From the human T2T-CHM13v2.0 reference genome, Homo sapiens, in NCBI GenBank assembly GCA_009914755.4, contig CP068257.2, positions 25,312,001 through 25,376,000 on the forward strand: a stretch of 64,000 bases of DNA, written 5' to 3'. Positions 22,473 to 62,020 of the stretch are shown here, one piece after another. Both the position numbers and the translations under genes were made by a program. The notes beneath the pieces are model-generated. The model was not told the origin of the DNA, made no database searches, and saw only the letters and a list, made by a program, of their open reading frames with translations. The first letter of the stretch is position 1, and every line of letters starts with the position of its first letter.

Positions 22473-22483
<11 letters not shown>

Positions 22484-22528
<45 letters not shown>

Positions 22529-26980: not shown

Positions 26981-27335
<355 letters not shown>

Positions 27336-35626: not shown

Positions 35627-35646
35627 GTTTTCTTTCTTTCTTTCTT

Positions 35647-35713
<67 letters not shown>

Positions 35714-35740
35714 TCTTCTCTTCTTTCTTTCATTATCATC
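35627..35740. repeat. (TTTC)n/(CT)n compound microsatellite.
   Basis: ctttctttctttctttctctctctctctctttctttctttctttc... The ORF 35530..35856 (FLSFFLSFFLS) is an artefact of this repeat. Confidence 0.9.
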
Positions 35741-36050
35741 TAATCTACCTATCTATAGCTATCTATTCAAATATAAATATAGACAAAGATATATATATAG
35801 ATACATTAAGAGATTTGTTGCAAGAAACTGGTGTATGCAATTATGGAAACTGGTGAAGTAGATAGAAAATCCATAGGGCGGGCCATCAGGAAAGCCAGGC
35901 TGTAAGTCTTAAGCACAATCTGAATCTGCAGTCCACAGGCAGGATTTCTTGGTCAAGTATGTCTCAGTTCTGCTCTCAGGCCTTTTAAATGGATGAAAAA
36001 TAATCCATCTGAATTATCTAGGATATCTTCTGTACTTTGTAGACACCTAA

Positions 36051-36353
<303 letters not shown>

Positions 36354-37335
36354 TAATTACAGATGTTAGTCACATCTACAAAATGCCTTTACAACAACAC
36401 CTACATCTGTTTGATTGACTAACTGCAGACTGGGGATTGTAGTCAAGTTGACACATAAAACTGATTGTCACAGTATTCTAGTGGTTAGGACAGGTTCTGG
36501 TACATCGTAGGCCTTCGCTTCATTTATGCAAATAAATAAGTGATGTCCCACTTTATAAGCTATACTTCTGCTATACTTGACTCTCTGTGGAGCTTGAATT
36601 CTATGGTTAGTTTCTTAAATAATGCCATTGTGAACACATTTAGCCATTCCTCAACAAGGGGTCAGCCCCACTGTGCATTTTTACCACTCCTGATCATAGG
36701 TATTAGTCATGATACCAAGAACATTTGCATAGAAAAATCATAGTTAAGAAGGGAAAGAAGTCTATATTGAGTCTCTAGTTTTTAAAAGGTACTTTTCATA
36801 AACGTTTCAAAGGATTTATTGTTTTGAATCCATTATTTAAAAGCTTATTTATTTAAATAATCTTATGAGTGTATTTGAGATTAGTTTTTCCCTCTTATTA
36901 ATTACTATTCTATATACTTACTATATTTGTTCCTTTTTCTCTACCTCCCTTCCAGAATCATGAATATGAGAAGTTATCTAGTGGTAGCAAGTTTCTACAC
37001 ACAGTTTACCAAGCTCTCCTAGAAAATTTCCAAAAAGTCAAACTAAAGTTAAATCCTTAAATTCCCAGAGATGTGAACTCTTCTTAATATACTGAAATAC
37101 TGCAAGTATTCCACATAAGTTTATTACCTCATTAAAGTGGAAATCCCTACTCTACATTTTTAACCACTTTGAAAATCAAAATGATATGTTAGTATTTTGT
37201 AGTTTTCACATTTTCCACGAATTACCAAAGATTACCTATAGAGACTTGGCTCATTCTCTGCAATTTTGTTCAAGTTCCTACAATATAACTCAGCAGGCCC
37301 AGACACTAAAGCATATTAAAAAATTAATATCTGTA

Positions 37336-37612
<277 letters not shown>

Positions 37613-37927: not shown

Positions 37928-38255
<328 letters not shown>

Positions 38256-41200
38256 TTCTGATTTGCAACTATACATGTACCCAGGAGCTCTTAGCCCAGA
38301 TGTGTAGATTGCCTGAAGCATATGAACATTTTTCTTCTCCATGGGCACAATTTTTAATTACATACTTAGAATTTCACTTGCGATACACCCCAGTGTTGGT
38401 TCGTGGCTGGGATTCTTAATATTCCATCTTAATATTCCCTCCCTTGCAGAATTTTTATTCATGCGATCATCTTTGTGCTTTTTTCTCAATTTCTTGAAAT
38501 CCTGGTTATTAACTCTAGAATTTATGTTTGATAGGGTCAGATGCCAGGCAGTATGGATATACCAAATTGTTAAAATGTATTTCAAGTTGAGTCAACAACC
38601 CAGGGAATTGTTGAGCTTGTTTGGTGTGAAAATTTGAGTCAGGTACATTCTGTGGAATATTTTAATCTGAGTTTCCGTTAAATTGATTGGAAAAATGCCA
38701 AACCATGTGTTATTCGTAATTTGTTTTTCCACCCTGCCTCCTCCACTGTTACCCACATTCACCTGACCGTAAAAGGCCTTTTAACTAGGACGAACCCATC
38801 CATGTTTTGGTTCCTCAAATGTTTCAAGTTAGTTTTTCCAACTGTTGGGGTTTGGCAAACTCTTGTCAGCTTTTTGCCAAGGTGGTTATTTTTTTCTTTT
38901 AAATTTTCAAACCTGAGTGTGTTTTCTGGAAATGTAGTCCATATGTTTCTTATTTTTTTATATATAACTCATAAAAATAGTTTTTAATAATTATTTTATG
39001 TTCACAATATCTGTATGCTATTCCGTATCGGTCTCTTAGTCCATCCAGGAATGTTCCACCTTTTGTCTTTTAACTTAGGTGAAAAATTTTGAACCAAATC
39101 TGAAACTTGATAGGCCAGTACATTGAATGGTTGGCAAAATTTATTTTTCATTTCTCTCATTACCTTTAATAGAAACAAATAGTGTCCCTTTTGCCTAATT
39201 CAACAAAAAGTCAGGTCAGCTCAAATAACTAACAAGGAACACATGCAAATAGTATGTTAGAAATCAATGGGGAATGAGTTATTTATATTGTATCTATAAT
39301 TGCTAGACCCTTTTATTTTGGAAATCTTCTCCTTTCCACTCCCAGACAGACTTTTTTTCCAGAGACAATCATAATACTAATTCTCAAGTAGAACACATTT
39401 GAATTCTTTTCATTTTTTAGCATAAACCAAAAATGTTCAGTTGAATTTAAATCTTGATGTCTAAAGTCACTGGCACTTGTACTAAATTTTGACTTGTTTT
39501 CGTGTTTCATCTTAACTTATCTTACCTCCATCAGCTTACCTACTGTCTGAAGTGTGTTCTCCCTGAGTCTGCCCCAGCACATCACCGCACTAGTGCTGCC
39601 ATTGCCCTCACCATTACCCTACAGATCTCTTTCCTTGCTTCCACCTCTCTCTGCCTCTAATCCAGCCTTCACACTGCTACCTGTGAGGCTGAAGGATTGT
39701 ATTAGGTGCTTTATCTGACTCCCTGAGTTAATTATTTTTAATCCAAAAGATAGGTAAATAGATTTAAATTTCTGCAAGCATAAGAAAATCATTGGTATCC
39801 AGTGATCACTGCTCAATTTCAGTTTGCATATATGTTCAGATTTTTAAGGAACAAAATCAAATCCATTTAATTGCAATAAAATACAAATATAACCCTAGAA
39901 GTCGAGCTCAGGGGTAAATGTTAGCTACTTTTACAATTTCATAGAGAAGCATGGTATTGTCTATCAGTCAGTGAGCCAGGAGGAAACAGGTAATACATTT
40001 AAATGATGATCATTCCAGAAGGCTTTAATGAAGGAACTGTTGGCAAATGTGTGGGCATAGTGTGGGGGAATCAAGGGTTGGTGCAGGGTAATGAGAGATA
40101 ATGACAGTGACAAAAGTTGGGCACAGCAGGAAAAGAGGCTGAATCAGTTTTCAGGACCCTGAAAAGAGTCTGTAGAAAGGGACACATGGAAAGGAGCAAT
40201 GACCTTTGGTTGAAGAATGCAGCCAGCCTGAGGCAACCCCACAAGAAGATGGCTTTGGAGGCAAATAAATTCACTTGCCTCCTCTTTTTTGACCAAATGC
40301 AACAGAAGCCAGAAGACAATGATGTCCGCTAATATACAGATGTTCCTCAAGTTACAATGGGGATACATCCTGATAAACCCACAGTAACTTGAAAATATCA
40401 TAAGTTGAAAATGTATTCAATACACCTAACCTACTGAACATCATAGCTTAGACTAGCCTACCTTAAACATGTTCAGAACACTTACATTAGCTTACAGTTG
40501 GGCATATTCACCTCTATTTTATAATATAGTGTTATCTCATGATTGCTACCCTTGAGAGTACGTGGCTGACTGGCAGCTGCAGCTCCCGGCCACTGCCCAG
40601 CATTGCGGAAGAGTATCTTCCCCAACTTCTCCAGCCCAGGAAAAGATCACAATTCAAAATTCCAACCACATTTCTACTGAGTGTGTATCCTTTTGTGCTA
40701 TTGTAAAATCAAAACATCTTAAGTCAAACTATCATTAGGGCCCCTTCTGTCGTCCACACAGGTCAGCTTTCCAAGAGAGAAGGCAGGGTGGAAAAGGATG
40801 GGAAATGGATTTGGAGGGTCTAACAGAAATTTATCTGGGACATATTGCAAGGGCCACCAAAGACTTGTACAGTGAAGCTACAAAGGAGACACAGTGTTTA
40901 CTATACTCACTTGACTAGATAGTTCTAGGTACCTTCAACAGCTTTATAATTCATTTGCTTTTGATAATTGTCTCTGGTGTTGCTGGTTGACATCTTCTAT
41001 TGCATATGGACAATGATCATCTATAATGTCAGGATAATCGCAGGCCTCTAATTAAAAATGAGGAACATAATATTCTGTGACTATAAGCCTGGGAAGGATT
41101 ATCCTGCTCAAGCACATGGCCTTCAAAGAATATACTGTACAGTCGCCCCTGGTATCCAAGGCAGACTGGTTCCAGGACCTCCATGGATACCAAAATGTGT

Positions 41201-44094: not shown

Positions 44095-44624
<530 letters not shown>

Positions 44625-46013
44625 CTGTTTAGTTTCTTTGTAAAAACTTTATCACCTAATAGTGCCAATACTGTGTCTTGAATATGAAATTATACAATTA
44701 CGGCACTAAGATGACTCATTAGTCCAGGGATATGGTTATATTTGATCACACAACCTACAAGTTCTGTCATTATTCCATCCCACATAGTAACAAGGGTATG
44801 TAATCCCTGGATTGCCATTACCAGGTCGCAAATGGACCACCCTCATGACCCCATCATCAGCCATTGGTAATGATAAAAGAATAATGGAGACACCCCGACA
44901 AGGCACACATTGATTCAATTTTCAATGAACACAGACCCTGAAAGTGGCAAGAGTCTTTGGTGTTTTTTCCCCACATTTCAAATACAAGTGCACCTGTGTA
45001 TCCATTCATAGAGATTGAGCATTTAATCTCTATGAACTTTATTAATCTACCTGAAGACCTCCTAAATTCACCAGTCCAGTCTAATCTGGTGATGAAGCTG
45101 AAATGTCAGGAACTATGAGACATAGAATTGAGGCTTCATTATGTATGAGGCCCCACTGGGGCCAGGAACCTACTAGGCATCACTTGTTGGGGAAAAGAGC
45201 TCCTAAATTGAACATTGATTTCAAACTACAGTAAAAACTGGCTAGAATGCTAACTTTGCCCCCAAGATAAATCATAGTGTAGAGTTACTTCTAAATCTTA
45301 CTTATTAACCCAAATCAACATAATGACAACATCTATCACTTCTGGAATAGGACAAGTTTCTATTAGATCCTTACAAGCTTCCACTGTTCCCTGACTAATT
45401 AGTTAAAACTTCATCAAGACCAAATTACAAGGAAAAAACTTACGGTTTCCAAATACTTCTAAGAAATCACCAGCTCTTCCCTCTGGAACAACACACTCAG
45501 TGATGACCCAATAGTTCAGGATGCATCACATTAGGCCAAGATCCACTGTTAGACCAAGATGCCACCAAAACCAAACCACAGCTTTCAGCATCCACCATGT
45601 CGTTCCTATGCCAAAAAGGCCACAGACAGAAGTCAGAGGCCTTGCTAGTCCCTAAAGAACAGCACTAGACTCCATGAATTGTCAACAGTTGCACAAAGGA
45701 ATAAGTAAGTTCCAACCACCAGGCCCAACCCACAAGTTTCACTATTATAAATATCCAAAAGAGAGCTCTTTCACCTTTGCCTGGCAACAGACCTTCACAC
45801 TAAATCAATGCACTTAGCCTTGCAATGGTCTGTGCACTGCCTTCTCCTCAAACCAGACTCAAGTTAAGGTTTGGCAGGTCATCCAAAGCTTTTGACCAAT
45901 TTCTTCTTGCCAAATCCAAGCCCAGGGAAACTCTGCTTGCTCTTCCACTGAAGAGATTTCAGATCCCAGGATCCTCATCTTTCTAATGATAATCGTTTTC
46001 CTTATAAGAACCT

Positions 46014-46407
46014 GTATTCGTCCATTTTCACACTGCTATAAAGAAATACCGGAGACTGGGTAATTTATAAAGGAAAGACGTTTAATTGACTCACAGTTCC
46101 ACATGGCTTGGGAGGCCTTAGAAACTTACAATCATTGCAGAAGGTGAAGGAGAAGTAAGTACCTTGTTCACCGGTGGCAGAAAAGAGAAAGAGAATGAAG
46201 GGGGAAGAACCTATTATAAAACCATCAGATCTCGTGAGAATTAACTCACTATCACGAGAACAGGATTGGGGGAAACAGCTCCCGTGATTCAGTTATCTCC
46301 ACACAGGAAATAAGACACACGCATATGTCCCTCCCGTGACACGTAGGGATTATGGGAACTACAATGCAAGATGAGATTTGCGTGGGGACACAGCCAAACC
46401 ATATTAA
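46014..46407 (-). mobile_element. Solo MaLR LTR, THE1/MST family, antisense.
   Basis: The plus strand reads tgtattcgtccattttcacactgctataaagaaataccggagactgggtaatttataaagg ... cgtggggacacagccaaaccatattaa, i.e. the reverse complement of the THE1 termini. Confidence 0.8.
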
Positions 46408-46739
46408 CACCTAACAGTTTATACAAATTGAAAGCTCACACAGACTTTACTTTCAAGTAGAGATGATCCTAATGAAAATATAAGGGTCAAGTTTTCTTTG
46501 TATTATCCTTTCTATCTGTTGCCACAGCCCCTGATCCTGACAGTACCTTCTTAGTTCAGCCCTTCCTGGTGCTTAAGCATGACACTTAGGTGTAATGATG
46601 TTTTTCAGGATGAAAAGTGTTATTAGTTCTATCCTCTCTTTGGCTTGCAAACTGGTAAACCTGATAAAGAAATGTGCTCCAGAAACATTTTAACTGTGGC
46701 TTTTTTATTTATTAGTTTTTTTGAGGATAATGTCCTTAC

Positions 46740-47420
46740 CTTGTTTGCTAATTTTCTGGTGGTTTTCACACACTAAGCCATGACAGGCTTAAATTACTTC
46801 AGCCACCATGGAAAGCAGTCTGGATATTCCTCAAAAAACTTGAAACTACCATTTGACCCAGCAATCCCATTATTGAATATATACTCAAAGGAGTACAAAT
46901 CATTCTACCAGAAAGACATATGCATATGTACGTTCATTGCACCATTATTTACATTAGCAAAAACATGGAATCAATCTAGGTGCCCATCAATGGTAGACTG
47001 GATAAAGAAAATGTGGTGCATATACACCATGGAACACTATGCAGTCGTAAAAATAATGAGATCATATCCTTTGCAGCAACATGACTGGAGCTTGATGCCA
47101 TTATCCTTAGAAAACTGATGCAGGAACAGAAAATGAAATACTGAATATTTTTACTTGTAAGTGGGAGCTAAACATTGAGTCCATATGGACAAAAAGAAAG
47201 GAACAATAAACACAGGCCTACTTGAAAGGGGATGGTGGGAGGGGAGTGAGGATTGAAAAACTACCTATTAGGTATTATGCTGATTACCTGGGTGACAAAA
47301 TTGTCTGCACACCAAATCCCCGTGACATGCAATTCACCGCTGTAACAAACCTGCACACGTACCCCTTGAGCCTAAAATAAAAAATGAAAATAAAAACATA
47401 AATTATAAAAGAAGAAAGTT
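46740..47420 (+). mobile_element. L1 (LINE-1) 3' terminal fragment: ORF2 C-terminus plus 3'UTR, sense.
   Basis: The ORF 46780..47118 translates to ...LPFDPAIPLLNIYSKEYKS...FIAPLFTLAKTWNQSRCPSMVDWIKKMWCIYTMEHYAVVK, matching the L1 ORF2 C-terminus (IPFDPAIPLLGIYPKDYKS...FIAALFTIAKTWNQPKCPTMIDWIKKMWHIYTMEYYAAIK). It is followed by the L1 3'UTR (tgggagctaaacattgagtccatatggacaaaaag...) and an A-rich tail. Confidence 0.85.
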
Positions 47421-47425
47421 ATTTA

Positions 47426-47729
<304 letters not shown>

Positions 47730-49005
47730 GTTATTTAAAGAACCAAAATGATGAAGATGCAGATCACATTTTTGTGTTTTACTATGAAGATGCAAATACA
47801 GCAAACACTATGACCAATAACTGCCATTTATGAAGCACCTGCTGTCTGCCAGACATTTTAGGTGCAATATAATATTCAGCTGTAACAATAACCCTAAGAA
47901 ACAACTACTATTATCCTCATTATACATTTAACTCAACTGATGTTCAGAAATGTACATCATTTGTCCATAGCCAAGTAGTAATTAACAGAACTGCTGTTAG
48001 ACCCTGATTACTTGAGATGCTAGAATGAGGCCTCTTCTTTCACTGCCCTGTGGCCTCCCAGCTAAGTGAGATGAACTCAGGCTGGGGCATGTTTTCAGAA
48101 TGTGGTTTCTCGGGAGGTTTTTGCTCCAAATATTCTTTCACCAATGATTATGATGCTTGAAATTTCTCCAAAGGACATTTATTTCTCTGAGTCAGAAGGG
48201 ATTTTAGTTCATGTAGACTCTTAAACTAAAATACAAATGCACTTGAGGTTAAAATGAAGTTTAATTAGGTAACAACTTAACAATTACTGATGAATGGCTG
48301 GCCAGAGCTTCTGTGACATAGGAGAAAAAAGTCCACTGAAGGGATAAATGAGAGCAATCATAAAATTTGCCACTTTTACTTCTTAGAAATCTTGCCATTT
48401 TGGTTGCTTCTGACCTTGCTATGCAGTTTTCAAAACATCGGACTCGAAGAACAAAACATTTTGCTGAAGTGGAGTGATTTGTAACATTTGCATTTTAGAA
48501 GAGCAGTTGGGTATTCCCTTTGATGGAGTCTCTTAGAAGTGGTGGAAAGTAGGCCTTAGGAAATGGTCAATGGTTATCAGATGGCACTGGCTTATAAAAC
48601 CACAGGGCTCTGGGAATCTGCTCTATCTCTAACTCCAACTTATGGACAAGCACGTTAGTGGTCTGGGAGTTCTAGCAAAGGCCATGATTATTTTAAAAGG
48701 AATAGACTTGTTACAGTTTTTGGGGTCATGGATACATATGATTCTATGTGTCTGTGTGTATACTCTGTGTGTTTGAAATTTGAACTGAATGGTTTTCTTT
48801 ACAACATTTCTGAATACACCGACAAAATAGAAAAGGAATGAAAATATTAATTACTTTTTTGAATAATTGCATCTAAAGTGATAATCTTACCTCAAACATA
48901 GTTATTTCAAAGAGGCAGTTTCCTTAATATCAAATTCTTCTATATGTAGATATTCACTATACATGAGACTCAATAAATTGTTTTTCAAGTGAATTATTAG
49001 CCTTG

Positions 49006-49370
49006 CATTAGTTTGTTCTCATGCTGCTAATAAAGACATACTTGAGACTGGGTAATTTATAAAGAAAAAGAGGCTTAATGGACTCCCTGTTCCACATGGC
49101 TGGGGAGACCTCACAATCATTGTGGAAGGTGAAGGGGACGCAAGACATGTCTTACATGGCAGCAAGCAAGAGAGCTTGTGCAGGGGAACTCCCATTTATA
49201 AAACCATCAGATCAAGGTGAGACTTATTCACTACCAGGAGAACAGTATGGGGGAAACCACCCCCCTGATTCAATTATCTCTACCTGGCCCTGCCCTTGAC
49301 ATGTGAGGATTATTACAATTCAAGGTGTGGTTTGGGTGGGGACACAGCCAAACCTTATCAAGCCTCCATG
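49006..49370 (-). mobile_element. Solo MaLR LTR, THE1 family, antisense, full length. This is the source copy for the inverted duplication below.
   Basis: cattagtttgttctcatgctgctaataaagacatacttgagactgggtaatttataaag ... ggggacacagccaaaccttatca. The ORF 49078..49299 lies inside it and is an artefact. Confidence 0.8.
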
Positions 49371-49552
49371 ATAGATGGTGACATATGCTTTCACCAGTAG
49401 CAAAACACATTAGAAAAGAATCAGATTATAGAACTAAACTTCTTTAATAACAGCGACTTTTTAGTTTGAATTGAGAGAATTCTCAACTGATGGACTTTAA
49501 TTAAAATATTCAGAAATATGACTTTTGGAAATATCTCGATTAGGGTAAAATC
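49033..49552. repeat. Left arm of an inverted duplication (about 520 bp, about 98% identical to the reverse complement of 54181..54702).
   Basis: A manual reverse-complement alignment spans most of the THE1 LTR plus about 185 bp of unique flank. I counted only a few substitutions, including two CpG to TpG changes, and one 2-bp indel. The coordinate sum is constant (about 103735) across the arm. Confidence 0.85.
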
Positions 49553-52194
49553 ATAACTTTTAAAAAATATTTTGGAATACTTCCAAACTTACAGAAAAGT
49601 TACAAAAATAGGACAATATTTTTACCCTTAACCGTTTTTCAGGAAATAATTGTTTGATGCCCTTCACCTCTGAATACTCTAGTGTATAATTTCAACAAAG
49701 AAATTACCCAACATAACCATGATATAACCGTCCAAATCAGAAAATTAACACTGATAACATGACTGCCACCTTCTCCTCAGATCTCATTGAGGGTTTTCCA
49801 GTTGTCTTCAGAAAATGTCCTTGATAGCAAAAGAAACCATTCCAGGATTATGTATTATATTAATTTCATGTCTCTTTAATCTTCTTCAATCTGAGAGTTT
49901 CTCAGTCTTTCCTTCACTTTCATGACCTTGATGCATTGAAGATTATGGAACATATATTTTGTTCTGTCACTGCCTCTCCACCCGCCAAGTTTGGGTTTGC
50001 CTAACGTTTTCTTCCTGATTAGATTCGGATTTTGTGTATTAGCAGAAATATCATAGAAAGGGTACTTTGTTTTTGTTAGTGCATTCTATCAGAAGTTATG
50101 TGGTTTCAATTTGTCTCATTACTGGTGATGTTAACTTTGATCACTTGATTAACATGATTTCTGTCAAGTTTCTTCACTATAAAATTACACTTTTTTTGTA
50201 ATTAATACTTTTTCTGTAGGGAGGTACTTTAAAACTAGGTAACTATTCTATTCTTCATCAGTTTCTGCTGTGACTATTTCTCCCACTACATTAAAAATTT
50301 ATTATGACTGGCTTATTGGAAAGCTATTGATTTTATGTGTTTACCTTGTACTTAAGTGTGTTTCTAAACATTTATAAGTTCCAATAGATTTTTAAAAAAC
50401 AATTCCCATGAATTTTCTGTAGTAAATTATTTGCCAGTATAGTATGTAAGTCTTTTTATTTCCTTCCCTTATTTTATTGTCATGCCCAAGAATTCTAGTA
50501 AAATGTTAAATTTCTGGCTTAAATGAAAGTGCTTCTGAATTTTCTCCATTAATTACTGTTTTTAAGATGAACTTTTTACAGATGTATAATCAAATAGGTC
50601 TAGATTTCTAAGAAGACCGTTTTGTTTTATAAATCAAGAATGGCTATGTAAATTAGTAAATAATTTTTGGCAACTGTTGAATTGATAATATCTTTTTCCT
50701 TCAAATTTTAATATAGTAACTTAAATTGACATATTTTCTAAAATAAAAAGGACCTTATTCTTGGAACAAACTCTAGATAGTTATAATATATTTTTAATGT
50801 ACAGCTGGATTAAATCTGCTAATATTGTCATAGGATTTTCAAAACTTTATTCACAGGTGGTAGAGTCCTGTACTTGATTGTGTGTGTATGAGTGTGTCTA
50901 TGTGAGTGAGTATGCACTTTATTCTTATTTGCTTGTATGATCTTTCTTTGTTATAATTCTTATTAATTATAAGAATTCTTATTAATTATAACTAATTTCA
51001 GGGCTACCCTTGCATTAACCTCTTTCAAGTCCTGTTATCTAATTTTGTATTCGTAAGTGTGTATTCTCTTCTCTAAAAAAGATATTCCATGATTATGTAA
51101 ACAATGGATTCCAAAAGCTTGGATCACTCTTTGAGTTGAGCATATTAATGTTTGTCAACACAAGGAAATTCTAACCATAGAAATAGCCATATTGGTTTCA
51201 ACTCTGGGGACATGGAAGATGCAATCATCATGCTTCAGTGGAGCTTCTCAGCTCTAACTTCCAGTACCTACCTACTCAATAGGCGGATATGGGACAGGAA
51301 TTAGCCATGAGATAGCAGTTTATATGGTAGAAGGTGGATTGCTATGAGATTCTTGCATCTTATTTTGATAGATCTTTCTTGTTAAATCGTTGTTGATTAT
51401 ATCACAATAAATTAAATTATAGAACTGATTGTACTGCATGAACTCAAAATTTTGTCGATCCTAGAAAATGGGTTATAGATTTGATGAGTTTCCTTCCTTT
51501 TGCTATAAGCTCCATGATGGGCTCTCCATGATGGCAAGGACTGTATCTTGTTCGCTGTCTCTATTAGAATGTGAAACACATACTAAATAATCAGTGATTA
51601 TTTGAATGATTCTTGAATAAGGTTTTCCCAGAACAAATAACATTGTTTGTTTGGAATACATTACAAACTCAATACACGGTAAAGTGTGGACAAGCGTCAG
51701 GAAGAGTTTATGTCTTGTAAAGCTGCTTAATGACTGCTAAAGATAAGTTTTGCTTGGAATTTCTGGATTAATATGTTTAGATAATAAAATATTTTTATTT
51801 ATTTTAAAAATTATTAGGTCTGTCTTACAATGATAAAGTCATCGCATCTTAGCAGCTTTGATTCAGAGATAGGAAGCAACCAGGCAAAAAAGTTTTGACA
51901 TAATATAAGAACAAGAAACTTAAAAAGGAAAAAGAAATATTAAAAAATATAAGAACTCTAATTCAATTTATATTTAAATTTTGTAATCTAAAATATAAAA
52001 ATTAAGAATATATAATCCATGGCTCAAATAATACCCATCTGGGCTTCAATATATTCCACGAATCAAATTTAGATATTGTTTGTCTTGAGCAGAGCGTTTT
52101 TTCACCAGAATACCTTTTTTAGTTGAAAAAGCAAAGGCAAATGAAAACTATAGAAGTTCTAATTGCTAATAAAGAAATGCCATCTGAAAATTAC

Positions 52195-52530
52195 AGATAA
52201 TTTTATTTTAAAATTTTATTTCAATAGTTTTGGGGGTACAGGTGGTGTTTGGGTACATGGATACATTCTTTAATGGTGATTTCTAAGATTTTGGTGTACC
52301 CGTCACCGGAGCAGGGTCCACTGTACCCAATATGTAGGTTTTCATCCCTCACCCCCCTCCCACTCCTCCTCAGTGAGTCCCCAGAGTCCATTATATCATT
52401 CTTATGCCGTTGCATCCTCATAGCTTAGCTCCCCCTTATAAGTGAGAACATGCAATATTTGGTTTTCCATTCCTGAGTTACTTAAAATAATGGTGTCTAG
52501 CTCCACCCAAGTTGCCACAAAAGATATTAT
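52195..52530 (-). mobile_element. L1 3'UTR terminal fragment, antisense.
   Basis: ttttatttcaatagttttgggggtacaggtggtgtttgg...ccctcacccccctcccactcctcc...cttataagtgagaacatgcaatatttggttttccattcctgagttac is the reverse complement of the L1 3'UTR terminal region. A T-rich head (reverse-complemented poly-A) lies at the low-coordinate end. Confidence 0.75.
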
Positions 52531-54180
52531 TTTTAGATGTGTTGGAATGATTTGATTATTACTCTATAAAACAATGACCTGTCCCTTTGGTACAAGTCTT
52601 TAGCATACTTGCAGCCTTATAAAATATAATCAGATGATAGTAAGCCTTTTCTTTAATGAATTTGTCCTCACTCTACCCTTTTTCTCTTAGAGTATTTAAC
52701 ATAAAATAAAACTGATTATTTTTTCTCATACAATATTTAGCATAAAATAAAACATTATTAAACCATGTTTATGGCAGCCTTGTTTGATATCTCATTTTTT
52801 CTTAATTAAAAATTTTATGGCTCTCTGAATCACTTAGAATGAATTTTCTGAAGAGAAACATCAAGAACTTACATCTCATTTCTGTTGCTTTTTCAGGAAA
52901 TCTCATTTTTAGAATCTGTTTTATTACCACTGTTGTTTACCAGACCACAGAAATATCTCCTTTGACTGTCTAAAATCCATCTGCACAAATTATTTACCAA
53001 TCATCCTTTTAATGTGTCTGTGTGTTTCTTGAAGCTAGAGATAATGCTTTTTAGTCCTTTAAGCCATACCCTAATAGAGTAAGGCTTAAAGCAATGCATA
53101 AGAAATAGCAATACACAAGTAATATTAGTCTCTTTATTCACTCCCCACTATCATCTACTTCCTGAAAGCAGACTTTTGCTTCAATATATTCTAGCTGTCA
53201 AACATTATGGCACATTTTTCTGTTTCTGCCTCATTAGAATCACTAGGAGAGATTCTTTGCAGTAATTATCACACAAACTTCTCATCTTTATTAGGTGTTA
53301 TCTTCTGGCTCATTTGGCAGGAAGATTTGAGGAGCAAATACCCATAAACTTCACGATCACCTACAGGCTATAAGGAATGAGATTGCATATACAGGCTGGA
53401 TTTTAAGTTGATAATGTTTCATACTTTACTTGGAAACATAGTCCTGAAGCGTTGCATATTGGAAAGGATATTAATGTTATATTAATATTAGAGATGTCAT
53501 GAATTTAACTCGTATATCTGCTATTTACTGGTTTTCTTTGATTCTGGGATAGTTACCTTAATTTTCTCATTTGTAAAAGTCTACAACATAGGATAGCAAG
53601 GCATAATATTTTGGGGTGATGAAATGAGGTGCTCTATTTAAAAGAATATTTCTTACACAGACTTATAAAGAAAGATATATTGTATCATCAGTGATATTAA
53701 TTCATGGGACTCCAGTTTGGTGGCCCATGCCATATGATTGTAGACAGTATTACACAAAATGTTAACAACTAAACATCGCTTACCCTAGGAGAAAGATTTT
53801 TTAAGAACTCTATTACATTTTGTTCCATTTTAAGTTTTTTTTATGACTAAGAATGGTGTGTATCTTCTTTTATTATCTTTCAAATAAAAGATCCTAGAGA
53901 AGAATTTTAAAACGTACCATCAACCCAAGGGAAAAAGTACAGGTAGAAAACAGCCAAAACTGTCTAATGTGATCTATTTTGCAAACAGTATGGTAGTGGA
54001 TCCAAAATAGAATATTAAACCACACCACATAATCAGGATGGCAGTATGCTGCCTTATCTTATACTTTTAAAGAAAAAACAGTAAATGATGGTGGCTAAGC
54101 AGTAGAGTGGGGAAAATAGGATTCCAAAAAAACACGGTAGCATCTGGCATTGTGTTTAAACTAAAAAAATCAAAAACTAA

Positions 54181-54702
54181 GGTTTTACCCTAATCAAGAT
54201 ATTTCCAAAACAGTCATATTTCTGAATATTTTAATTAAAGTCCATCAGTTGAGAATTCTCTCAATTCAAACTAAAAAGTCACTGTTATTAAAGAAGTTTA
54301 GTTCTATAATCTGATTCTTTTCTAATGTGTTTTGCTACTGGTGAAAGCATATGTCACCATCTATCATGGAGGCTTGATAAGGTTTGGCTGTGTCCCCACC
54401 CAAACCACACCTTGAATTGTAATAATCCTCACATGTCAAGGGCAGGGCCAGGTAGAGATAATTGAATCATGGGGGTGGTTTCCCCCATACTGTTCTCCTG
54501 GTAGTGAATAAGTCTCACCTTGATCTGATGGTTTTATAAATGGGAGTTCCCCTGCACAAGCTCTCTTGCTTGCTGCCATGTAAGACATGTCTTGCTTCCC
54601 CTTCACCGTCCACAATGATTGTGAGGCCTCCCCAGCCATGTGGAACAGGGAGTCCATTAAGCCTCTTTTTCTTTATAAATTACCCAGTCTTATGTATGTC
54701 TT
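54181..54702. repeat. Right arm of the inverted duplication. It contains a 3'-truncated THE1 LTR copy (54375..54700, sense) plus the duplicated flank.
   Basis: The reverse complement of 54181..54374 matches 49370..49552 almost base for base. The LTR copy diverges from the source about 30 bp before the LTR end (gtatgtctt|catatgggagatt versus ...gtctttattagcagcatgagaac), which marks the duplication breakpoint inside the LTR. The ORF 54436..54657(-) mirrors ORF 49078..49299(+). Confidence 0.85.
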
Positions 54703-57700
54703 CATATGGGAGATTTTAAGGACAGCTTGTGGTAAATATTCTCTCAGGTAAGAACTTTGCAATACTTGTACATTGTGAGTAACGTGAGAAAATAAGAAAG
54801 GAGAACATTAAATATGAGGTATACTTACTGCTTGGATTATGTTTCCTGTTTGTGTTACTACATTTCAACCATAACATAATTCAACATTTAGATTTCACAT
54901 CTTATTTGTTTCTCTTGCTTTGTAAAAACAAAACATTTAAATTATTGTCATATATATGTCATACATATACATATTCAGACCATTTTGCAAATAAAATGGA
55001 AAATCAAGACAAATAATAAAACATTTATGTCAAAAAGTCTCAATCTCACAGTGACCTGAATTCCTAAAAGAATTAGCAAACCCAAAACCTGGTTCTGAAA
55101 TTTTGGTAAATTTCTCCAACCTCTCTTATGCCTTAGTGTTCCCATATTTAAATAGGAATATTAATATGAATATTATTATTCTGTAGGATTTTTGTGATTA
55201 TTTCAAAGGGTCCATTTATTAATTAAACTTGAGAAGCACTGGTCAAAGGTCCTCTGTTTCTATTAAATAGGGCCATTCAGTAATAATCTGTGTTCACTGT
55301 GGGGAGCAATTGCTGTTGATGTCCCCTGGTTCCCATCATACTTGTCTCCCCAGTCCCGCTCATGTCCCTGTATACCAAATGGCCAGAACCTGCATACCAA
55401 TGCCCAAGAGCTTTGCCCTGATGCTGGAGCCCCTTTAATGGCCACTGAAGACCAGGACTGTGGCTTTCAAAAAATGCTTTTGTTTGTAAATACCATAGCC
55501 CTCTTACCCTCATGTATGATAACTATAGAACTTGTGTTCTACATTGAATCCCAGAGTTTCTCTAATGGAGTTAGTCTGTAGTCTCTAGTGCCACTAGTAG
55601 TAGACACCTTTTATTAGCTGCCTTCTTTTTTTTAAATCTCACTCCCAACCTCCCTACCTGGCCTCTTTAACTTCCAAAATAAATGATTTGTATGGTATAC
55701 AAATTCTTGTCTCAGGGTCTGCTTTTGGGAAGCCCAAACCAAAACACCCTATTCTCAGGGTACTTTAACTTTACCATTTCCCAAAATAGTATACAAGATT
55801 TATGTAATTTTGATGTCCCTTTTATCTATTTAATCTGCTATGGAGAGGTATCAAAAATGTTCTTGGTCACACAATGATAGATGTCTTTGTGTCAATCTGC
55901 ATAGCACTGAATTCTTGTGGGTGGGCACCACCAGTCACAAAATATGAAAACCATAGGAAGGAGATGCTCTTGCCAAATGAGATCCCTAAGGGAAAATATT
56001 TTAAAAATTTGAGCCAATGATCACATTGTAAATATATGAGGACTTGGTATACCAGAAAGCTGGCTCTATAAATCAATAGTTTAAAAAGCAGATTGTTTAA
56101 TACATGCTATTGAGGAAACTACTTCCTCTATGGAAGAAAATAAAACTTTAGATGGATTAAAGAACTAAATATGAAAAGTACAAAACTATAAAATTGTTAG
56201 ATAAAAGTATAAGAAATTATCTTTTTGACATAAAGTTAAAAACAAGTTGCCAGAATAGGAAAAATATTGAGATAGCTAAAATTGAGAAGAGGGGAACAAA
56301 ACCTAAATAAAGTGCATGAAAATCAATAATTAAACGTAGAAAATGGGTAGTATCTAGGAATAGGAAAGTTAAAGAAGAGGAAACTTTAAAATCTTAGAAT
56401 CATATAATAAAATACATTGAATATTTAATGCCAGGGAAATGCAAATTAAAATGACGTATACATTTGTATATCTAAGACTGAAAAAAATTTACAAATCCAG
56501 CTAATGTCAAATGTTGGTGTGATCATAAAGTCTATCTGTTTGGATGGGCAAGCATTAGCTATGAAGACGAATAACACAAAAACCTTGGTGGCTAAATACA
56601 CTGAAGGTTTATTTATTGTTCATCCCACATGTAAATTACAGTGTTATAGTCCCCCACTCATGCACGCAGAAACCCAGGCTCATATATCACAACCAATTGA
56701 ACATTGTTGATCATCATGCAGGTGGGAAAAGGAAAGCTCTCTGAGCTGAAAATGGGGGGAGTTAGTTGTGGGGAACTGGGGCTTTGTATAAGCAAATAAA
56801 TGATGCGTGTAACTTCTGCCCACAATTCACTGGTCAGAAGTATCCATAGGTTTCCAACTACATGGAATGAAAGGAACCCTCAAGCATTTCTGGTAGAAGT
56901 GAAGGCTGCTTTGACCCATTTTTGCAGGGCAATATAGCAATACTTAGTCAAGTTAAGAATATTTGTACACTGTGTTCCATTTTCTTCTTAGTGACTTTAA
57001 AACATCTCTCTGTTAGACTGCTCTCAGCTAAAGGTGCTGCAAGACTCTCAGTTTTGTGTCCTAGAGTATCCTTCATTGCATTAGACTCTCTTAGCATTTG
57101 GAAAGATATCAATATATTGGAACTATCAATACCACTGAAGCAAGATACTTACGCCCTCCTCGGTCTTTCTTACAGATCAAAACTTGTTTCTGTCACAGTT
57201 AACTTTTTTAAAGATGCCAGATTTTTAACTTGTAAACAAAAATTCAAAGCTAAGCATATTTTTCATATAGATGTTTCCCAATAATACATGATGAGCAGTG
57301 ATGTCAAGCTACCTATTTTTAGTTTAATAATTGGATTTTCTTGCTCACCTGGAAGGACAGTCTTCACGGGGACAGAGAACTCGCTGTCACCCAGCCTGTC
57401 TGTGTCCTTGTTGCTATTTTTGAGACTTAATGGATTTCTCCCCTTTCTCTTCATCTGCATGATGCTCATCCACTCCGGTCCATTTGAATCTCAACCTAGT
57501 GTGCCTCTTGAAGAATGGTTTGCTTAAATTGCTATGGCAAAAAACAAAGCATAAGGGGGAAACTGTTTCTAGAATGAATCTTCTCCATTCATATTTCTGA
57601 GCAGTATTTGTTCAAAGCCTTAAGGATATAATCCAAGCCAAAAATAATGCATCTGAGGCCGCTGGCCCACAGATGCTCAGCAAGCCCTTGAAATGCACTT

Positions 57701-58703
57701 TTGTGGAGTCTTTTCCTCTTGTTAGAACTAATCCTTTTGGAATGTCAGATTGTCCCCAAGACTGATAATTAAACATGAAAAATTAGGCTTTGGGGAAGTC
57801 ATGAAAATTAGAGCCAACAAGCCTTGACTTCTTTCTTACTGTTCTGTACCTAGAAGAAGAATAGTTTATTCCCTTTAATATCTAAAATGTCCTGATTATG
57901 AACGTTTCTTTTCTGACTGTTTCCAATTTACCTGTCAGTTCACCAGAACTGGAGACACTTAAAGCTTGTTTTACAGTGTGTTGCTAGCACCCAGAAGAGT
58001 CCCTAACATATAATATAAGCTCAATAAATACATGTTTATTGAACGAGTAAATAAATTACAGGTCTGGTTTCATGGAAAAAAATGAAAATGCATTGGAGAT
58101 GTGTCTTCAAAACATAAATAAGTAACGTAAATGGAGAAACTTGCAATTTAAGAGACTAGAAGCAATATCAAATGATGAATCAAGTATTTGTTACCCACAA
58201 GAAACTATTGGTCAGTTTTATGGGTTGAATTTTGTCCCTCAATAAAATTCGTATGTTGAAGTTTTAACCTCCAGTGTCCCTGAATGTGACCTTATGTGGA
58301 AATAAGGTTATTGCAGATGTAATTAGTTAAGATGGGGTTATACCAGACTAAGGTGGTCCTCCAATCCAATTTGACTAATGTCCTTAAAAAAAAGGGAAAT
58401 TTGGATACAGACAGGCACAAAGTGAGAATGCCATTTGAAAACTGGAGATATGCTGCCATAGTCAAGGGAGGTCAGAGATTGCCAGCAAACCACAAGACCT
58501 TACAGAAAAGACCTCAGCCATTTTCCATGGTAAGCAGAAGAAACCAACTCTGCCAACATCCTGATTTTGGGCTTCTAGCCTCTAAAACTGTGGGGCAACA
58601 TATTTCTCTTCTTTAAGGTACCCAGTTTGTGGTTCTTTTTATGGCAGCCCTGGCAAACCAATACAGTTAGTAATGGTGATATTGTTTTAAAAAGTTAATA
58701 GAG

Positions 58704-58994
58704 GGTTGGGCACATGGTTCAGTCCTGTAATCCCAGCACTTTGGGAGACTGAGGTGGGCAGATTGCTTGAGTGCAGGAGTTCAAGACCAGCCTGGTCAAC
58801 ATGGTGAAACCCCATCTCTACAAAAAATATAAAAATTAGCCGGGCATGGTGACACATGCCTCTAGTCCCCGCTACTTGGGAGGCAGAGATGAGAGGATCG
58901 CTTGAGCCTGGGAGTGAGCTAAGATCACACCACCACACTCTAGCCTGGGTGACAGGGCGAGACTCTGTCTCAAAAAAAAAAAAAAAAAAAAAAG
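58704..58994 (+). mobile_element. Alu SINE (AluS-like), sense, with a 22-nt poly(A) tail.
   Basis: gggttgggcacatggttcagtcctgtaatcccagcactttgggagactgaggtgggcagattgcttgag...ctagcctgggtgacagggcgagactctgtctc(a)22. The flanks aaaagttaata and aaaagtaaata are an approximate target-site duplication. Confidence 0.9.
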
Positions 58995-59517
58995 TAAATA
59001 AAAAAACTAAGGTTGATACAGGTGCTTGTGACAAAGCCAATAGCTCAGACAACATTTCCCCTGCAAACTCAGATTCCATTAATTCACGGAAAAGTTTCTC
59101 TTTTTGACATGTGCAATTAGAAAAATTAGAACAGTGGCTGGACTCTATGTTACTGAAATGCAAGGGTGTGTACAAATGAAGGTTATGGAAGAGGATGTGC
59201 TCCAATAATAAATGAGAAAGCTGGGCAAGTTCATGAAATATTTCAATTTGAGAAGGTACCAGTTTGCCAGAGACTAACAGGTCCTACTCAAAGTCTTCTA
59301 GTGTTTTATCTACTTCCCTAATTTTAAATTAAGAATCTCAGTACATCCAATGGGGACCCTGGGATATTCAGACGTAGTTTAAGAATTGAGAACCATCCAG
59401 CTGCTGAATCTTGAGTAAGAAGGCAAAGACTACAGTAAGCTGATAGGAACACATGTTCTCTTATCTTTATGCCTTTCTGCAGGGAGGCAATCATAAAACA
59501 GGATGAGGAAAACACTC

Positions 59518-59901
59518 TGATTTGGTTTGGCTGTGTCTCTACCCAAATCTCATCTTGAATTATAGCTTCTATAATTCCCATGCATTGTAGGAGCGACCTG
59601 TTGGGAGGTAATTGAATCACAGGGACAGGCCTTACCCATGCTGTTCTCATGATAGTGAATAAGTCTCAGGAGATCTGATGGTTTTATAAAGGTGAATTCC
59701 CCTGCACAAGCTCCTCTTGCCTGCCTCCATGTAAAACATCTCTTTGCTCTTCCTTTGTCTTCCACCATGATTGTGAGGCATCTGGAACAACTCCTGAACT
59801 AGGATTACATGTGGAACTGTGAGTCCATTAAACTTATTTCCTTTATAAATTACCCAGTCTCAGCTATGTCTTTATTAGCAACATGAGAACAGACTAATAC
59901 A
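59518..59901 (+). mobile_element. Solo MaLR LTR, THE1 family, sense.
   Basis: tgatttggtttggctgtgtctctacccaaatctcatcttgaattatagcttctataattcccatgcattgtaggagcgacctgttgggaggtaattgaatca ... ctttataaattacccagtctcagctatgtctttattagcaacatgagaacagactaataca. Confidence 0.85.
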
Positions 59902-61706
59902 TCCTCCTGGAAACTTTTCAGCTGACTTAGTCCAGCAGAAACACCATCACAACACCTAAGTGAAGGATGAAGGGTGAAGCCTGTGACAATGGCTTTCATA
60001 GTGGATTTCTCGAACAGGATTTATTTTCTGTGACAGAGATGTGTCTCTGATGCCATATCTATAAAATATCAATAAAGCTGATAAAGAAAATGCCAAATCG
60101 GAAGTGGCTGAGGGGAGAATTTTCCCACAATACTTTGAAAGAACCCCATTGATAATTTTTCTTCTCTTCATCAAAGATTGGGAAAACAGTGAATCAAAGT
60201 TGGGCACTTCAAATTAGATGGAGTAGAGTTGTTTATATGATTTTTTTTTAGTAATGTTGCTTTCCCACATCCTATTCTGACTCTTTTTAAACTTCATGTT
60301 GGCCATTCAAAGCAAGGGGACATTTTTAGAGGCATGTTAACTTGCTATGGAGACAGTGACCCTAGCATTTGGGGCTTCTGTGGGAAGGAAGGCCTTAGCC
60401 ACAGGCAATTCCTGTTGACGTTCACAGTGAGGCAGCATCTGAGACGATCCTTCTACTCTTCAAAGTGTAATAAAAGACATATTTTTAAAAGTGAGTACTC
60501 ATTTAGTGAATGCTTCCAAGTAATCTTCCACCTAACAACTTAGGGCAGAGAGTTTGTACTTCGGAATATATCGGGAAGATACATGTATTTGTTATCACCT
60601 ATTTTTACATTTATTTTTATTGAAATAGATATTTAGGCCACTACCCTAGTTTTGTAGCTACATACTGGCAGAAAATTCTTAAGTTATTAGCAAGATTCAT
60701 GAAAATAACAAAGATAGAACAAATATAGTTCGTGTGAAATGAAGAGTTAACGACAATGTCAAAGGGGAAGTCATAGGAAGATGCAGATTTACTCACTTCA
60801 GCTCTGTACTGGAAACTCTTATTTTTTCTCCTTTACAAAAATCTACGAACTATATTTTGCTTTGTTAATTTGAACAACTTAGGTTTCTTCTTTGTTATTT
60901 TTCACTCATGTAGGTGCAGAGATATAAAATCAGTGATTTTGAAGAGTAACTAAAAATGAATTAATAGCCATACATTTATGCAGACAGAACTTTATTTTTA
61001 TCATCTGTTTGTCTAAATAAATAAAAAAGAAGTAACCAAACCAATTTTTCCTTTGCTGTTTGTTATTAGTCATTCAAATATTTGCCTTCTCATTGAGTTA
61101 GCGTTTTAGTCAAAATAGCTTTCAATATGCTAAAATAAGTAAACTATTAAGTTCTGGTGGAGTTTTTAAATTAAAAATAATTTATTATGCAGTGATGTAT
61201 ATTAAATGGATAGTTTAATATATGTATATGTAAATAATGTTTTTAAATAGCATTATATTTAATATAATATTTAAATAAATGTTGCCCACATTTAAAAATT
61301 TCTTATTTGTTTTTAGTTTAGTAGCTCTAAAAATTCTTTAAAATATAATACAAAATAAAACACAGTAGATTCTGTCAATTACTGAAGAGTGTATGCATAT
61401 ATAACATACCTATATGTTACACATATATAACATGCACATGTATAACAACATATAATGCTTTTCTTTGTTGTTTTTCCAAGGGCCATTATTATAAAATCAG
61501 AGATATGTTCTTCCAGAAAATGTTTGACTTGAAACATAATGGAAAATTTTAAATTAAATAACATTTAATTTTAAGTAAAAACATCTTCTGACATGATATA
61601 AATTCTCAACCTATTATTGTAATGAATTTTACCCTAATATATTAACTGGTAAAAAATATGAAAAAATACCTAAGGTTGAAATTTCTTCTTAAAATATACG
61701 TGCTAA

Positions 61707-62020
<314 letters not shown>

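What the first reader, a model, noticed from the sequence alone, without database searches (positions are those of the whole stretch)
49033..54702. Recent inverted duplication: two roughly 520-bp arms (about 98% identical) containing a THE1 LTR plus unique flank, bracketing a 4.6-kb spacer
Region 54181..54702 is the reverse complement of 49033..49552. The match covers the THE1 LTR and about 185 bp of adjacent non-repeat sequence across the same LTR/flank junction. Two independent LTR insertions cannot explain that, so this is a segmental inverted duplication. The breakpoint lies inside the LTR, because the right copy loses the last 30 bp or so of the LTR. The ORF pairs 49078..49299(+) and 54436..54657(-) are mirror images of each other. 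Inverted repeats of this size and identity can mediate non-allelic homologous recombination, so the 4.6-kb interval between them is a candidate polymorphic inversion. The pair could also form a cruciform or fold-back structure, or a long hairpin RNA if transcribed. It lies about 36-41 kb upstream of ADAMTS5.
Basis: seen in the sequence. Interest (0 to 1): 0.55.

Follow-up and report, generated by a model that had tools for sequence, protein, structure and literature searches.

The report
Small inverted duplication upstream of ADAMTS5
A 521-base piece of human chromosome 21, made of most of an old retroviral LTR plus its neighbouring unique DNA, was copied backwards 4.6 kb away some millions of years ago; this is a real but ordinary by-product of DNA repair with no sign of function.

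Summary
Window 49030-49550 is the reverse complement of 54183-54705, with 9 substitutions and one 2-nt indel in about 521 nt (98%). It is the only high-identity inverted repeat in the 64-kb window apart from Alu pairs.

The left arm is the parent. Its THE1-type solo LTR (49004-49360, minus strand) is complete, has TG..CA ends and sits between identical 5-bp target-site duplications (AGCCT). The right arm carries one TSD and 185 nt of host flank, but lacks the last 26 nt of the LTR and the outer TSD. Two independent LTR insertions, a composite repeat, a retrocopy and a transposon with inverted ends are therefore rejected.

Divergence of 1.06-1.73% suggests one non-homologous event roughly 7-18 million years ago. 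This was most likely a replicative template switch. Substitutions cluster at the outer edge of the copy.

I could not decide whether the 4.6-kb spacer was inverted in the same event, because no ape sequence was reachable. I found no evidence of function. The arm ORFs are LTR-derived chance ORFs, and Rfam and Pfam gave nothing.

NAHR inversion of the spacer is possible but untested. The arms are shorter than the shortest inverted repeats in a curated human set (654 bp), and the longest perfect tract is 188 bp. A cruciform is unlikely. Interest is low.

The parts
49030..49550 (+). Left arm, the parental copy of the duplicated segment (521 nt): LTR positions 49030-49360, the TSD, and unique flank up to 49550.
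   Evidence: The LTR continues 26 nt beyond the arm to 49004, and the outer TSD is present, so this copy sits in its original context.
49004..49360 (-). Complete THE1-type (ERVL-MaLR) solo LTR, 357 nt, with TG...CA termini.
   Evidence: Read directly. It is 86% identical to a THE1B consensus recalled from memory, not taken from a database. It is 72-80% identical to four other LTR copies in the window.
48999..49003 (.). Outer target-site duplication AGCCT of the LTR insertion. It is present only at the left copy.
   Evidence: One search prints AGCCT|TGCATTAGT...CCTTATCA|AGCCT. The chance of a 5-nt match at fixed positions is about 0.001.
49361..49365 (.). Inner target-site duplication AGCCT. 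It lies inside the duplicated segment and is copied at 54370-54374.
49366..49550 (+). Unique host flank included in the duplication (185 nt).
   Evidence: No other copy in the window, even with word size 7 and E<=1.
49551..54182 (.). Spacer of 4632 nt. It is AT-rich (GC 0.30-0.37), made of old repeat fragments and unique DNA, with no gene-like content found.
   Evidence: no Rfam hit; no Pfam hit for the 6 of the 7 listed ORFs >=55 aa that were scanned. Its orientation relative to the ancestral state is unknown.
54183..54705 (-). Right arm, the derived inverted copy (523 nt): flank copy 54183-54369, TSD copy 54370-54374, truncated LTR copy 54375-54705.
   Evidence: It lacks the last 26 nt of the LTR and the outer TSD. 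Three substitutions lie in the 15 nt next to the outer junction.
54705..54706 (.). Novel junction (breakpoint) inside the LTR: ...GTATGTCTTCAT|ATGGGAGATTTT.
   Evidence: The LTR sequence stops abruptly. There is no poly(A) and no TSD around the copy.
49078..49299 (+). 73-aa ORF inside the LTR, mirrored by 54436-54657(-). The two differ at 4 residues. These are chance ORFs of LTR origin.
   Evidence: No Pfam family. Not on record as a called gene.

Best explanation
This is a real, non-functional small inverted duplication in human chromosome 21, 36-42 kb upstream of the ADAMTS5 start codon.

Shown: a THE1-type solo LTR inserted long ago at 49004-49360 and made a 5-bp TSD. Much later, a 521-nt stretch was copied and placed 4.6 kb downstream in reverse orientation, at 54183-54705. 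That stretch consists of 331 nt of the LTR, the inner TSD and 185 nt of unique flank.

Inferred: the copy arose in one non-homologous, replication-based repair event of the FoSTeS/MMBIR type. A broken or stalled 3' end at about 54706 switched to the opposite-strand template at the left arm, copied about 520 nt with low fidelity near the switch point, and switched back. I put this at about 0.5. The main alternative is that the same kind of event also inverted the spacer (a 'dupINV' class rearrangement), at about 0.35.

Divergence of 1.06-1.73% between the arms dates the event to roughly 7-18 My ago, provided gene conversion has not erased differences. That is similar to human-chimpanzee or human-gorilla divergence.

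Today the pair is a passive structural feature. It is a possible but weak substrate for gene conversion and for NAHR inversion of the spacer.
For: - Arms are 98% identical across the LTR/flank junction. Other LTR copies of the family in the window are only 72-80% similar, and the flank is otherwise unique.
- An intact AGCCT TSD sits on both sides of the left LTR only. The right LTR copy is cut 26 nt short and has no outer TSD.
- The left LTR is about 14% diverged from the remembered THE1B consensus, against 1.7% between arms. The duplication is therefore far younger than the insertion.
- LTR-core differences polarised with that consensus fall in both arms: 3 derived on the left and 1 on the right. 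This is expected for independent decay after copying.
- Three of the 9 substitutions lie in the first 15 nt at the outer junction (P=0.002 under uniformity). At least two of these are derived in the copy. This fits error-prone replicative repair (PMC4352052).
- There is imperfect homology (8 of 13 nt) just beyond the inner junction.
- Duplication-flanked inversions and interspersed duplications made by MMBIR/FoSTeS or multi-break repair are a common class of human structural variant (PMC5338099; PMC6748972).
- Neither the arms nor the spacer hit any RNA family, and the arm ORFs and the spacer ORFs scanned hit no protein family.
Against: - No outgroup or second human haplotype could be obtained. 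The date, the ancestral orientation of the spacer and fixation in humans are all untested.
- The THE1 assignment and the polarisation rest on a consensus recalled from memory.
- The edge cluster of substitutions could partly reflect limited reach of gene conversion rather than error-prone synthesis.
- The pre-insertion target sequence is unknown, so microhomology at the junctions cannot be measured.
Confidence: 0.85

Rival explanations
1. Inversion with breakpoint duplication (dupINV/INVdup class). The ancestral order was A-X-B-C. One event, either staggered breaks or two template switches, inverted X+B while retaining X, giving A-X-B'-X'-C. Under this model the spacer is inverted relative to the ancestor, the right inner junction (54182/54183) is ancestral, and the left inner junction (49550/49551) is novel.
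For: - Duplication-flanked inversions are the largest group of complex structural variants in humans (77% of complex SVs in PMC5338099).
- Many human non-homologous inversions carry small duplications or deletions at breakpoints (PMC6748972).
- The structure seen here is exactly what this class leaves behind.
Against: - No second inverted pair (a duplicated 'Y' segment) was found at the other breakpoint.
- Differences lie near both ends of the right arm: 3 substitutions in the outer 15 nt, and an indel plus 1 substitution in the inner 40 nt. That is slightly more natural if only the right arm was newly synthesised.
- Neither point is decisive.
Confidence: 0.35
2. An older and possibly once longer inverted duplication whose arms are kept about 98% alike by ongoing gene conversion. 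Under this model the low divergence underestimates its age.
For: Divergence is lower in the core (1.06%) than at the edges. Gene conversion between inverted repeats is well established (general knowledge).
Against: - Similarity drops abruptly to background at both ends. There is no weaker extended homology beyond about 11 nt, even in a permissive alignment.
- The outer-edge divergence (3 of 15) would exceed the LTR's own divergence from its consensus (about 14%), so it cannot simply reflect age.
- Derived changes in the core are present in both arms.
Confidence: 0.1
3. Two independent THE1 insertions, or both arms being copies of one catalogued composite repeat: LTR plus internal or neighbouring repeat sequence.
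For: THE1/MST-type LTRs are abundant. Four other copies lie in this window.
Against: - The identity continues 190 nt past the LTR end, through the TSD, into sequence with no other copy in the window.
- The TSD directly abuts both LTR ends at the left copy, so the flank is host DNA and not THE1 internal sequence.
- The arms are 98% alike, against 72-80% for other family members.
- The right LTR is truncated and has no TSD of its own.
Confidence: 0.02
4. An artefact of the reference assembly or of the sequenced clone.
For: None specific. Inverted repeats can rearrange in bacterial clones (general knowledge).
Against: - The arms differ at 9 substitutions plus an indel, including CpG transitions at 49454 and 49537. 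These look like evolutionary decay, not a cloning duplication.
- The copy has clean junctions with unique DNA on both sides.
Confidence: 0.02

Closest known systems
Inverted repeats flanking NAHR-mediated human polymorphic inversions (the InvFEST 'HsInv' set; Aguado 2014 PMC3961182, Giner-Delgado 2019 PMC6748972)
   Same: Two inverted, more than 90% identical low-copy repeats bracket a few kb of unique DNA. In principle they could toggle the spacer by homologous recombination.
   Different: The arms are 521 nt, shorter than the smallest IR of the 24 NAHR inversions in that set (654 bp to 24.2 kb). The longest perfect tract is 188 nt. No second orientation has been observed. The locus was not found in the inversion tables I could search. 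The only chr21 inversion in that set, HsInv0045, is a different locus.
Duplication-flanked inversions and interspersed (dispersed) duplications among complex structural variants: dupINV, INVdup, iDUP (Collins 2017, PMC5338099)
   Same: A short duplicated segment in inverted orientation lies a few kb from its source. The junctions are non-homologous. Such events are attributed to MMBIR/FoSTeS or multi-break repair.
   Different: Those are polymorphic or de novo variants called against the reference. Here the derived state is the reference itself and appears old (about 1-2% decay). Whether the intervening segment is inverted is unknown.
MMBIR/FoSTeS templated insertions with error-prone synthesis near junctions (Carvalho 2013, as cited in PMC4352052)
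   Same: An inverted copy of nearby sequence, with abrupt junctions and a cluster of point changes in the copy next to a junction.
   Different: At 523 nt it is long for a simple templated insertion. The event is millions of years old, so junction microhomology and de novo status cannot be verified.
Segmental duplications as catalogued for the human genome (>=1 kb, >=90% identity)
   Same: An intrachromosomal low-copy duplication that includes both repeat and unique DNA.
   Different: It fails the 1-kb length criterion, so it would not be in the standard segmental duplication catalogue.
THE1 (ERVL-MaLR) solo LTR
   Same: The left copy has the length (357 nt), TG..CA termini, a 5-bp TSD and the sequence of a THE1-type LTR.
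   Different: The right copy is not an insertion of the element. It is a secondary copy of part of the left one plus host DNA.

Membership tests
THE1 / ERVL-MaLR solo LTR (left copy) | LTR of about 350-370 nt with TG...CA termini | tested here: met
   49004-49360 is 357 nt. In LTR sense it starts TGATAAGG and ends ...CTAATGCA.
THE1 / ERVL-MaLR solo LTR (left copy) | 5-bp target-site duplication directly flanking the LTR | tested here: met
   AGCCT at 48999-49003 and 49361-49365.
THE1 / ERVL-MaLR solo LTR (left copy) | Sequence match to the curated family consensus (Dfam/Repbase) | tested here: inconclusive
   86% identity to a THE1B consensus written from memory. No repeat library is available in these tools. 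Subfamily not assigned.
Independent THE1 insertion (right copy) | Own complete LTR ends and own TSD | tested here: not met
   The LTR is cut 26 nt short at 54705. Its flanks are ...CTAAGG and ATGGGAG..., with no TSD.
Segmental duplication (standard catalogue definition) | >=90% identity | tested here: met
   98%.
Segmental duplication (standard catalogue definition) | >=1 kb aligned length | tested here: not met
   521-523 nt. A permissive alignment extends it only to 534 columns.
NAHR-mediated polymorphic inversion | Inverted repeats of high identity at both breakpoints | tested here: met
   The arms are shorter than any IR in the curated NAHR set (654 bp minimum).
NAHR-mediated polymorphic inversion | Both orientations of the spacer observed among haplotypes or species | not testable with these tools
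   No human or ape sequence was found in the searchable collections. No entry was found in the inversion tables searched.
dupINV / INVdup complex rearrangement | Inverted duplication adjoining the rearranged segment | tested here: met
dupINV / INVdup complex rearrangement | Intervening segment inverted relative to the ancestral state | not testable with these tools
   This needs an outgroup, or a repeat annotation spanning the junctions. Neither was available (searches found no internal clue).
Transposon with terminal inverted repeats / foldback element | Arms are the element termini, and the whole unit is flanked by a TSD | tested here: not met
   The LTR continues 26 nt outside the left arm. 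The unit flanks are CATGCTGCTA and ATGGGAGATT, with no TSD.
Retrocopy (L1-mediated) of a transcript through the LTR | Poly(A) tail and a TSD around the copy | tested here: not met
   No A-tail at either end of 54183-54705 in the appropriate orientation, and no TSD.

The most novel reading that the evidence does not exclude
The 521-nt arms may actively mediate a recurrent ('toggling') 4.6-kb inversion polymorphism in humans and apes. That would make this one of the shortest inverted-repeat pairs known to drive NAHR inversion. The flipped segment lies 37-41 kb upstream of ADAMTS5 (aggrecanase-2), where it could reorient a regulatory element.
Probability: 0.08. Interest if true: 0.4.

Novelty: new member of a known kind. 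Interest (0 to 1): 0.15.

Why it matters
It matters little on its own. It is a clean, datable example of how repair-associated template switching scatters short inverted copies of DNA, here carrying part of a retroelement and its target-site duplication. It is also a reminder that duplications below 1 kb are missed by segmental duplication catalogues yet still create potential inversion and gene-conversion substrates.

If the spacer proved to be polymorphic in orientation, the locus would extend the lower size limit of inverted repeats that mediate human inversions. It would also add a structural variant near ADAMTS5, a gene of interest in cartilage degradation. Nothing found here indicates that this is the case.

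Tried and rejected
1. External DNA for an outgroup or a second haplotype. Exact-pattern scans from the unique flank found nothing in metagenome contigs, prokaryotic genome contigs or viral contigs. Exact look-ups of three arm ORFs in the assembly index found nothing on record.

2. Literature. No paper combines polymorphic inversions, inverted repeats and ADAMTS5. HsInv0045 on chr21 is a different locus, about 350 kb away (distance from my remembered ADAMTS5 coordinates), Alu-flanked and 940 bp long. No inversion ID with chr21-2700x or chr21-2837x appears in full texts. No matching coordinates appear in the supplements of PMC12229492, bioRxiv 2025.11.28.691176 or PMC9675761. No supplements are held for the HGSVC inversion preprint or the 2026 ultralong-read paper. 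The genome coordinates I used for these searches come from my memory of the ADAMTS5 position.

3. Internal clues to the ancestral spacer orientation. A sensitive self-comparison found no second duplicated segment and no repeat copy that would let me trace continuity across junctions.

4. Function. There is no Rfam family in the arms or spacer; the only hits are sub-threshold SRP and mir-3135 matches in an Alu at 47427-47708. No Pfam family matches the arm ORFs or the spacer ORFs scanned (6 of the 7 ORFs >=55 aa). A single arm has no unusual fold (z=-1.5).

5. Rejected readings: two independent LTR insertions, a composite repeat, a retrocopy, a TIR or foldback transposon, and a cloning artefact. 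See the membership tests and rival explanations.


Full report
**1. The observation**

An inverted-repeat search of 47-57 kb returns a single pair, 49030-49526 / 54209-54705, 98% complementary and 4682 nt apart. blastn of the whole window against itself gives 49033-49550 vs 54702-54183: 98.08% over 520 columns, 8 mismatches, 1 gap, E=0. A global alignment with flanks and a difference list put the arms at 49030-49550 (521 nt) and 54183-54705 (523 nt).

There are nine substitutions, at left-arm positions 49032, 49042, 49044, 49108, 49127, 49139, 49265, 49454 and 49537. The right arm also has a 2-nt insertion at 54211-54212. The spacer is 49551-54182 (4632 nt). Across the whole window, every other inverted pair of at least 150 nt is an Alu pair of at most 90% identity or the TA-rich array at 22.5 kb.

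**2. What the arms are made of**

Read in LTR sense, 49360 down to 49004 begins TGATAAGGTTTGGCTGTGTCCCCACCCAAA and ends ...GAGAACAAACTAATGCA. It is 357 nt long. It is 86% identical to a THE1B consensus that I wrote from memory; this is a lead, not a database result. Four other THE1/MST-like LTRs in the window (about 22914-23307, 29778-30151, 46010-46412 and 59517-59901) match it at only 72-80%.

The LTR is directly flanked by the same pentamer, AGCCT, at 48999-49003 and 49361-49365. A 5-bp target-site duplication is what this element class produces (established knowledge of ERVL-MaLR). Chance for a fixed-position 5-mer match is about 0.001. The left copy is therefore a solo LTR sitting in its original insertion site, and the sequence from 49361 onwards is host DNA, not THE1 internal sequence.

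The shared segment runs from 26 nt inside the LTR's end (49030), through the rest of the LTR and the inner TSD, and 185 nt into host DNA (49366-49550). That host DNA has no other copy in the window, even at word size 7. The right arm holds the flank copy (54183-54369), the TSD copy (54370-54374) and the LTR copy (54375-54705). The LTR copy stops abruptly at ...GTATGTCTTCAT|ATGGGAGATTTT, without the last 26 nt of the LTR and without an outer TSD.

Left is the parent and right is the derived copy. This excludes four readings:
- Two independent insertions.
- A composite repeat.
- A TIR or foldback element. The LTR continues outside the left arm, and there is no TSD around the 5.7-kb unit.
- An L1-mediated retrocopy. 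There is no A-tail and no TSD.

**3. Context**

The ORF at 11639-12778 (minus strand) begins MLLGWASLLLCAFRLPLAAV. Its C-terminal 107 residues match the PDB chains of ADAMTS-5 over their full length (E about 5e-66; ADAMTS-1 only 4e-35). A GC-rich block (0.62) covers 12-14 kb. The spacer is AT-rich (GC 0.30-0.37). It contains low-complexity stretches and an L1-like fragment at 52201-52530, which is 64% similar in inverted orientation to 47061-47395.

Nothing in the arms or spacer reaches any Rfam family. The only weak hits are SRP and mir-3135 matches in an Alu at 47427-47708. The two mirrored 73-aa ORFs (49078-49299 plus strand, 54436-54657 minus strand) differ at four residues. Neither they nor the other arm and spacer ORFs scanned (6 of the 7 ORFs >=55 aa) hit a Pfam family. 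Neither is recorded as a called gene. They are LTR-derived chance ORFs, mirrored only because the DNA is.

**4. Age**

Raw divergence is 9/520 = 1.73% (JC 1.75%). It is 1.06% if the 20 and 32 nt at the two edges are left out. With 0.5-1.2e-9 substitutions per site per year, this gives 7-18 My for the whole arm. That is similar to human-chimpanzee or human-gorilla sequence divergence (values from general knowledge).

The LTR itself is about 14% from the remembered consensus, so the duplication is much younger than the insertion. Polarising the LTR-core differences with that consensus gives three derived states in the left arm and one in the right. This is what independent decay of both copies predicts. 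The two substitutions in the flank (49454, 49537) are C/T differences at CpG sites.

**5. How it arose**

Similarity ends abruptly at both ends. A permissive alignment adds only about 11 noisy columns at the inner end, where 8 of 13 positions match. No second inverted pair exists at the other side of the spacer. Three of the nine substitutions lie within the 15 nt next to the outer junction (P=0.0018 under a uniform model). At least two of them are derived in the copy. The indel and one further substitution lie within 40 nt of the inner junction.

These features are abrupt non-homologous junctions, an inverted copy of nearby sequence, and extra mutations in the copy beside the junction. Together they are the signature attributed to replicative template-switch repair (FoSTeS/MMBIR). 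That repair is described as error-prone (PMC4352052, citing Carvalho 2013). It is invoked for the small duplications and deletions at the breakpoints of non-homologous human inversions (PMC6748972) and for duplication-flanked inversions, which make up 77% of complex structural variants in PMC5338099.

Two versions fit:
- (a) Only the 523-nt copy was synthesised and inserted (a templated inverted insertion, or inverted interspersed duplication).
- (b) The spacer plus arm was inverted while the arm was retained (dupINV).

I lean to (a), at about 0.5 against 0.35, because changes sit near both ends of the right arm. The sequence alone cannot decide. An ape outgroup or a repeat annotation across the junctions would.

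An older duplication homogenised by gene conversion is a minor rival. The edge divergence (3 of 15) would exceed the LTR's own age, and the homology boundaries are sharp.

**6. What it does now**

I found no evidence of function, and I regard the pair as a passive by-product.

- Recombination: the arms are shorter than the shortest inverted repeats of the 24 NAHR inversions in the curated human set (654 bp to 24.2 kb, more than 90% identity). Their longest perfect tracts are 188, 125, 68 and 63 nt. Those lengths are below commonly quoted meiotic NAHR processing-segment estimates (general knowledge). Inversion of the spacer by NAHR is therefore possible but not favoured. Short gene-conversion tracts are more plausible.
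- Cruciform: extrusion across a 4.6-kb spacer is unlikely. Work in yeast shows that the destabilising effect of inverted repeats is lost once spacers exceed about 100 bp (general knowledge, not tested here).
- RNA: if one transcript covered both arms, they would pair (duplex energy -967 kcal/mol). A single arm folds no better than shuffles (z=-1.5), and I have no expression data.

**7. What I could not do**

No human or ape DNA for this locus is reachable. Two metagenome scans, one prokaryote-genome scan and one viral scan with unique-flank patterns returned nothing. Exact ORF look-ups also returned nothing. The inversion literature I could search does not list the locus. Key call-set supplements are not held. 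The GRCh38 position used for those searches (about chr21:27.002-27.009 Mb) is from memory.

**8. Verdict**

It is sharpened by the parent and copy direction, the exact breakpoints, the TSD proof and a likely replicative origin. This is a new instance of a well-known kind of feature and has low intrinsic interest. The only route to higher interest is a demonstrated orientation polymorphism of the spacer.

Noticed in passing
window 11639-12778 (-), 12001-14400: ADAMTS5 exon 1: start codon at 12778, with the open frame running to 11639 just past the end of the exon. It matches PDB ADAMTS-5 chains. A GC-rich (0.62) CpG-island-like block covers the promoter and 5' end, with long antisense ORFs that are probably GC-composition artefacts.
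   Followed up: partly
window 22476-22791: A 316-nt TA-rich array, seen as (TA)n or as a 30-nt unit ATATATACGTGTATATATATACATATATAC x10.7. It is also self-complementary (inverted-repeat hits with 0-10 nt between arms). This is a classic hairpin-prone AT-rich microsatellite, immediately next to an LTR copy at 22914-23307.
   Followed up: no
window 26976-27286 and 44319-44629; also 61703-62020, 37337-37607, 37960-38259, 36050-36359, 47420-47729, 58700-58998, 25726-26004: Many Alu-like elements. The pair 26976-27286 / 44319-44629 is inverted and 90% complementary, 17 kb apart. It is the next-best inverted repeat in the window after the feature studied.
   Followed up: no
window 22914-23307, 29778-30151, 46010-46412, 59517-59901: Four further THE1/MST-like LTR copies, 72-80% similar to the LTR in the arms. 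They served as a within-window baseline for family-level similarity.
   Followed up: partly
window 47061-47395 and 52201-52530: Two L1-like fragments (assignment from memory of the L1 3' region) in opposite orientation and 64% similar. One lies left of the feature and one inside the spacer. They probably come from different L1 subfamilies and are unrelated to the duplication.
   Followed up: no
window 50955-50991: A perfect 19-nt tandem duplication (AATTCTTATTAATTATAAG x1.9) that is also nearly palindromic (self-inverted hit at 50947-50995), inside the spacer.
   Followed up: no
window 35629-35731: A (TTTC)n microsatellite, 26 copies, 90% matches.
   Followed up: no
window 47427-47708: Sub-threshold Rfam hits to Metazoa_SRP (32.6 and 25.9 bits against a gathering score of 70) and mir-3135 (35.9 against 80). 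All lie within an Alu element and are not genuine RNA genes.
   Followed up: partly
window 49551-50280: The sequence immediately after the left arm resembles, from memory, the long 3' UTR of an ancient L1 family (motif CAGAAAAGTTACAAAAATAGGACAA...). If a repeat library showed that this element continues into 49366-49550, that would prove the left inner junction is ancestral.
   Followed up: partly
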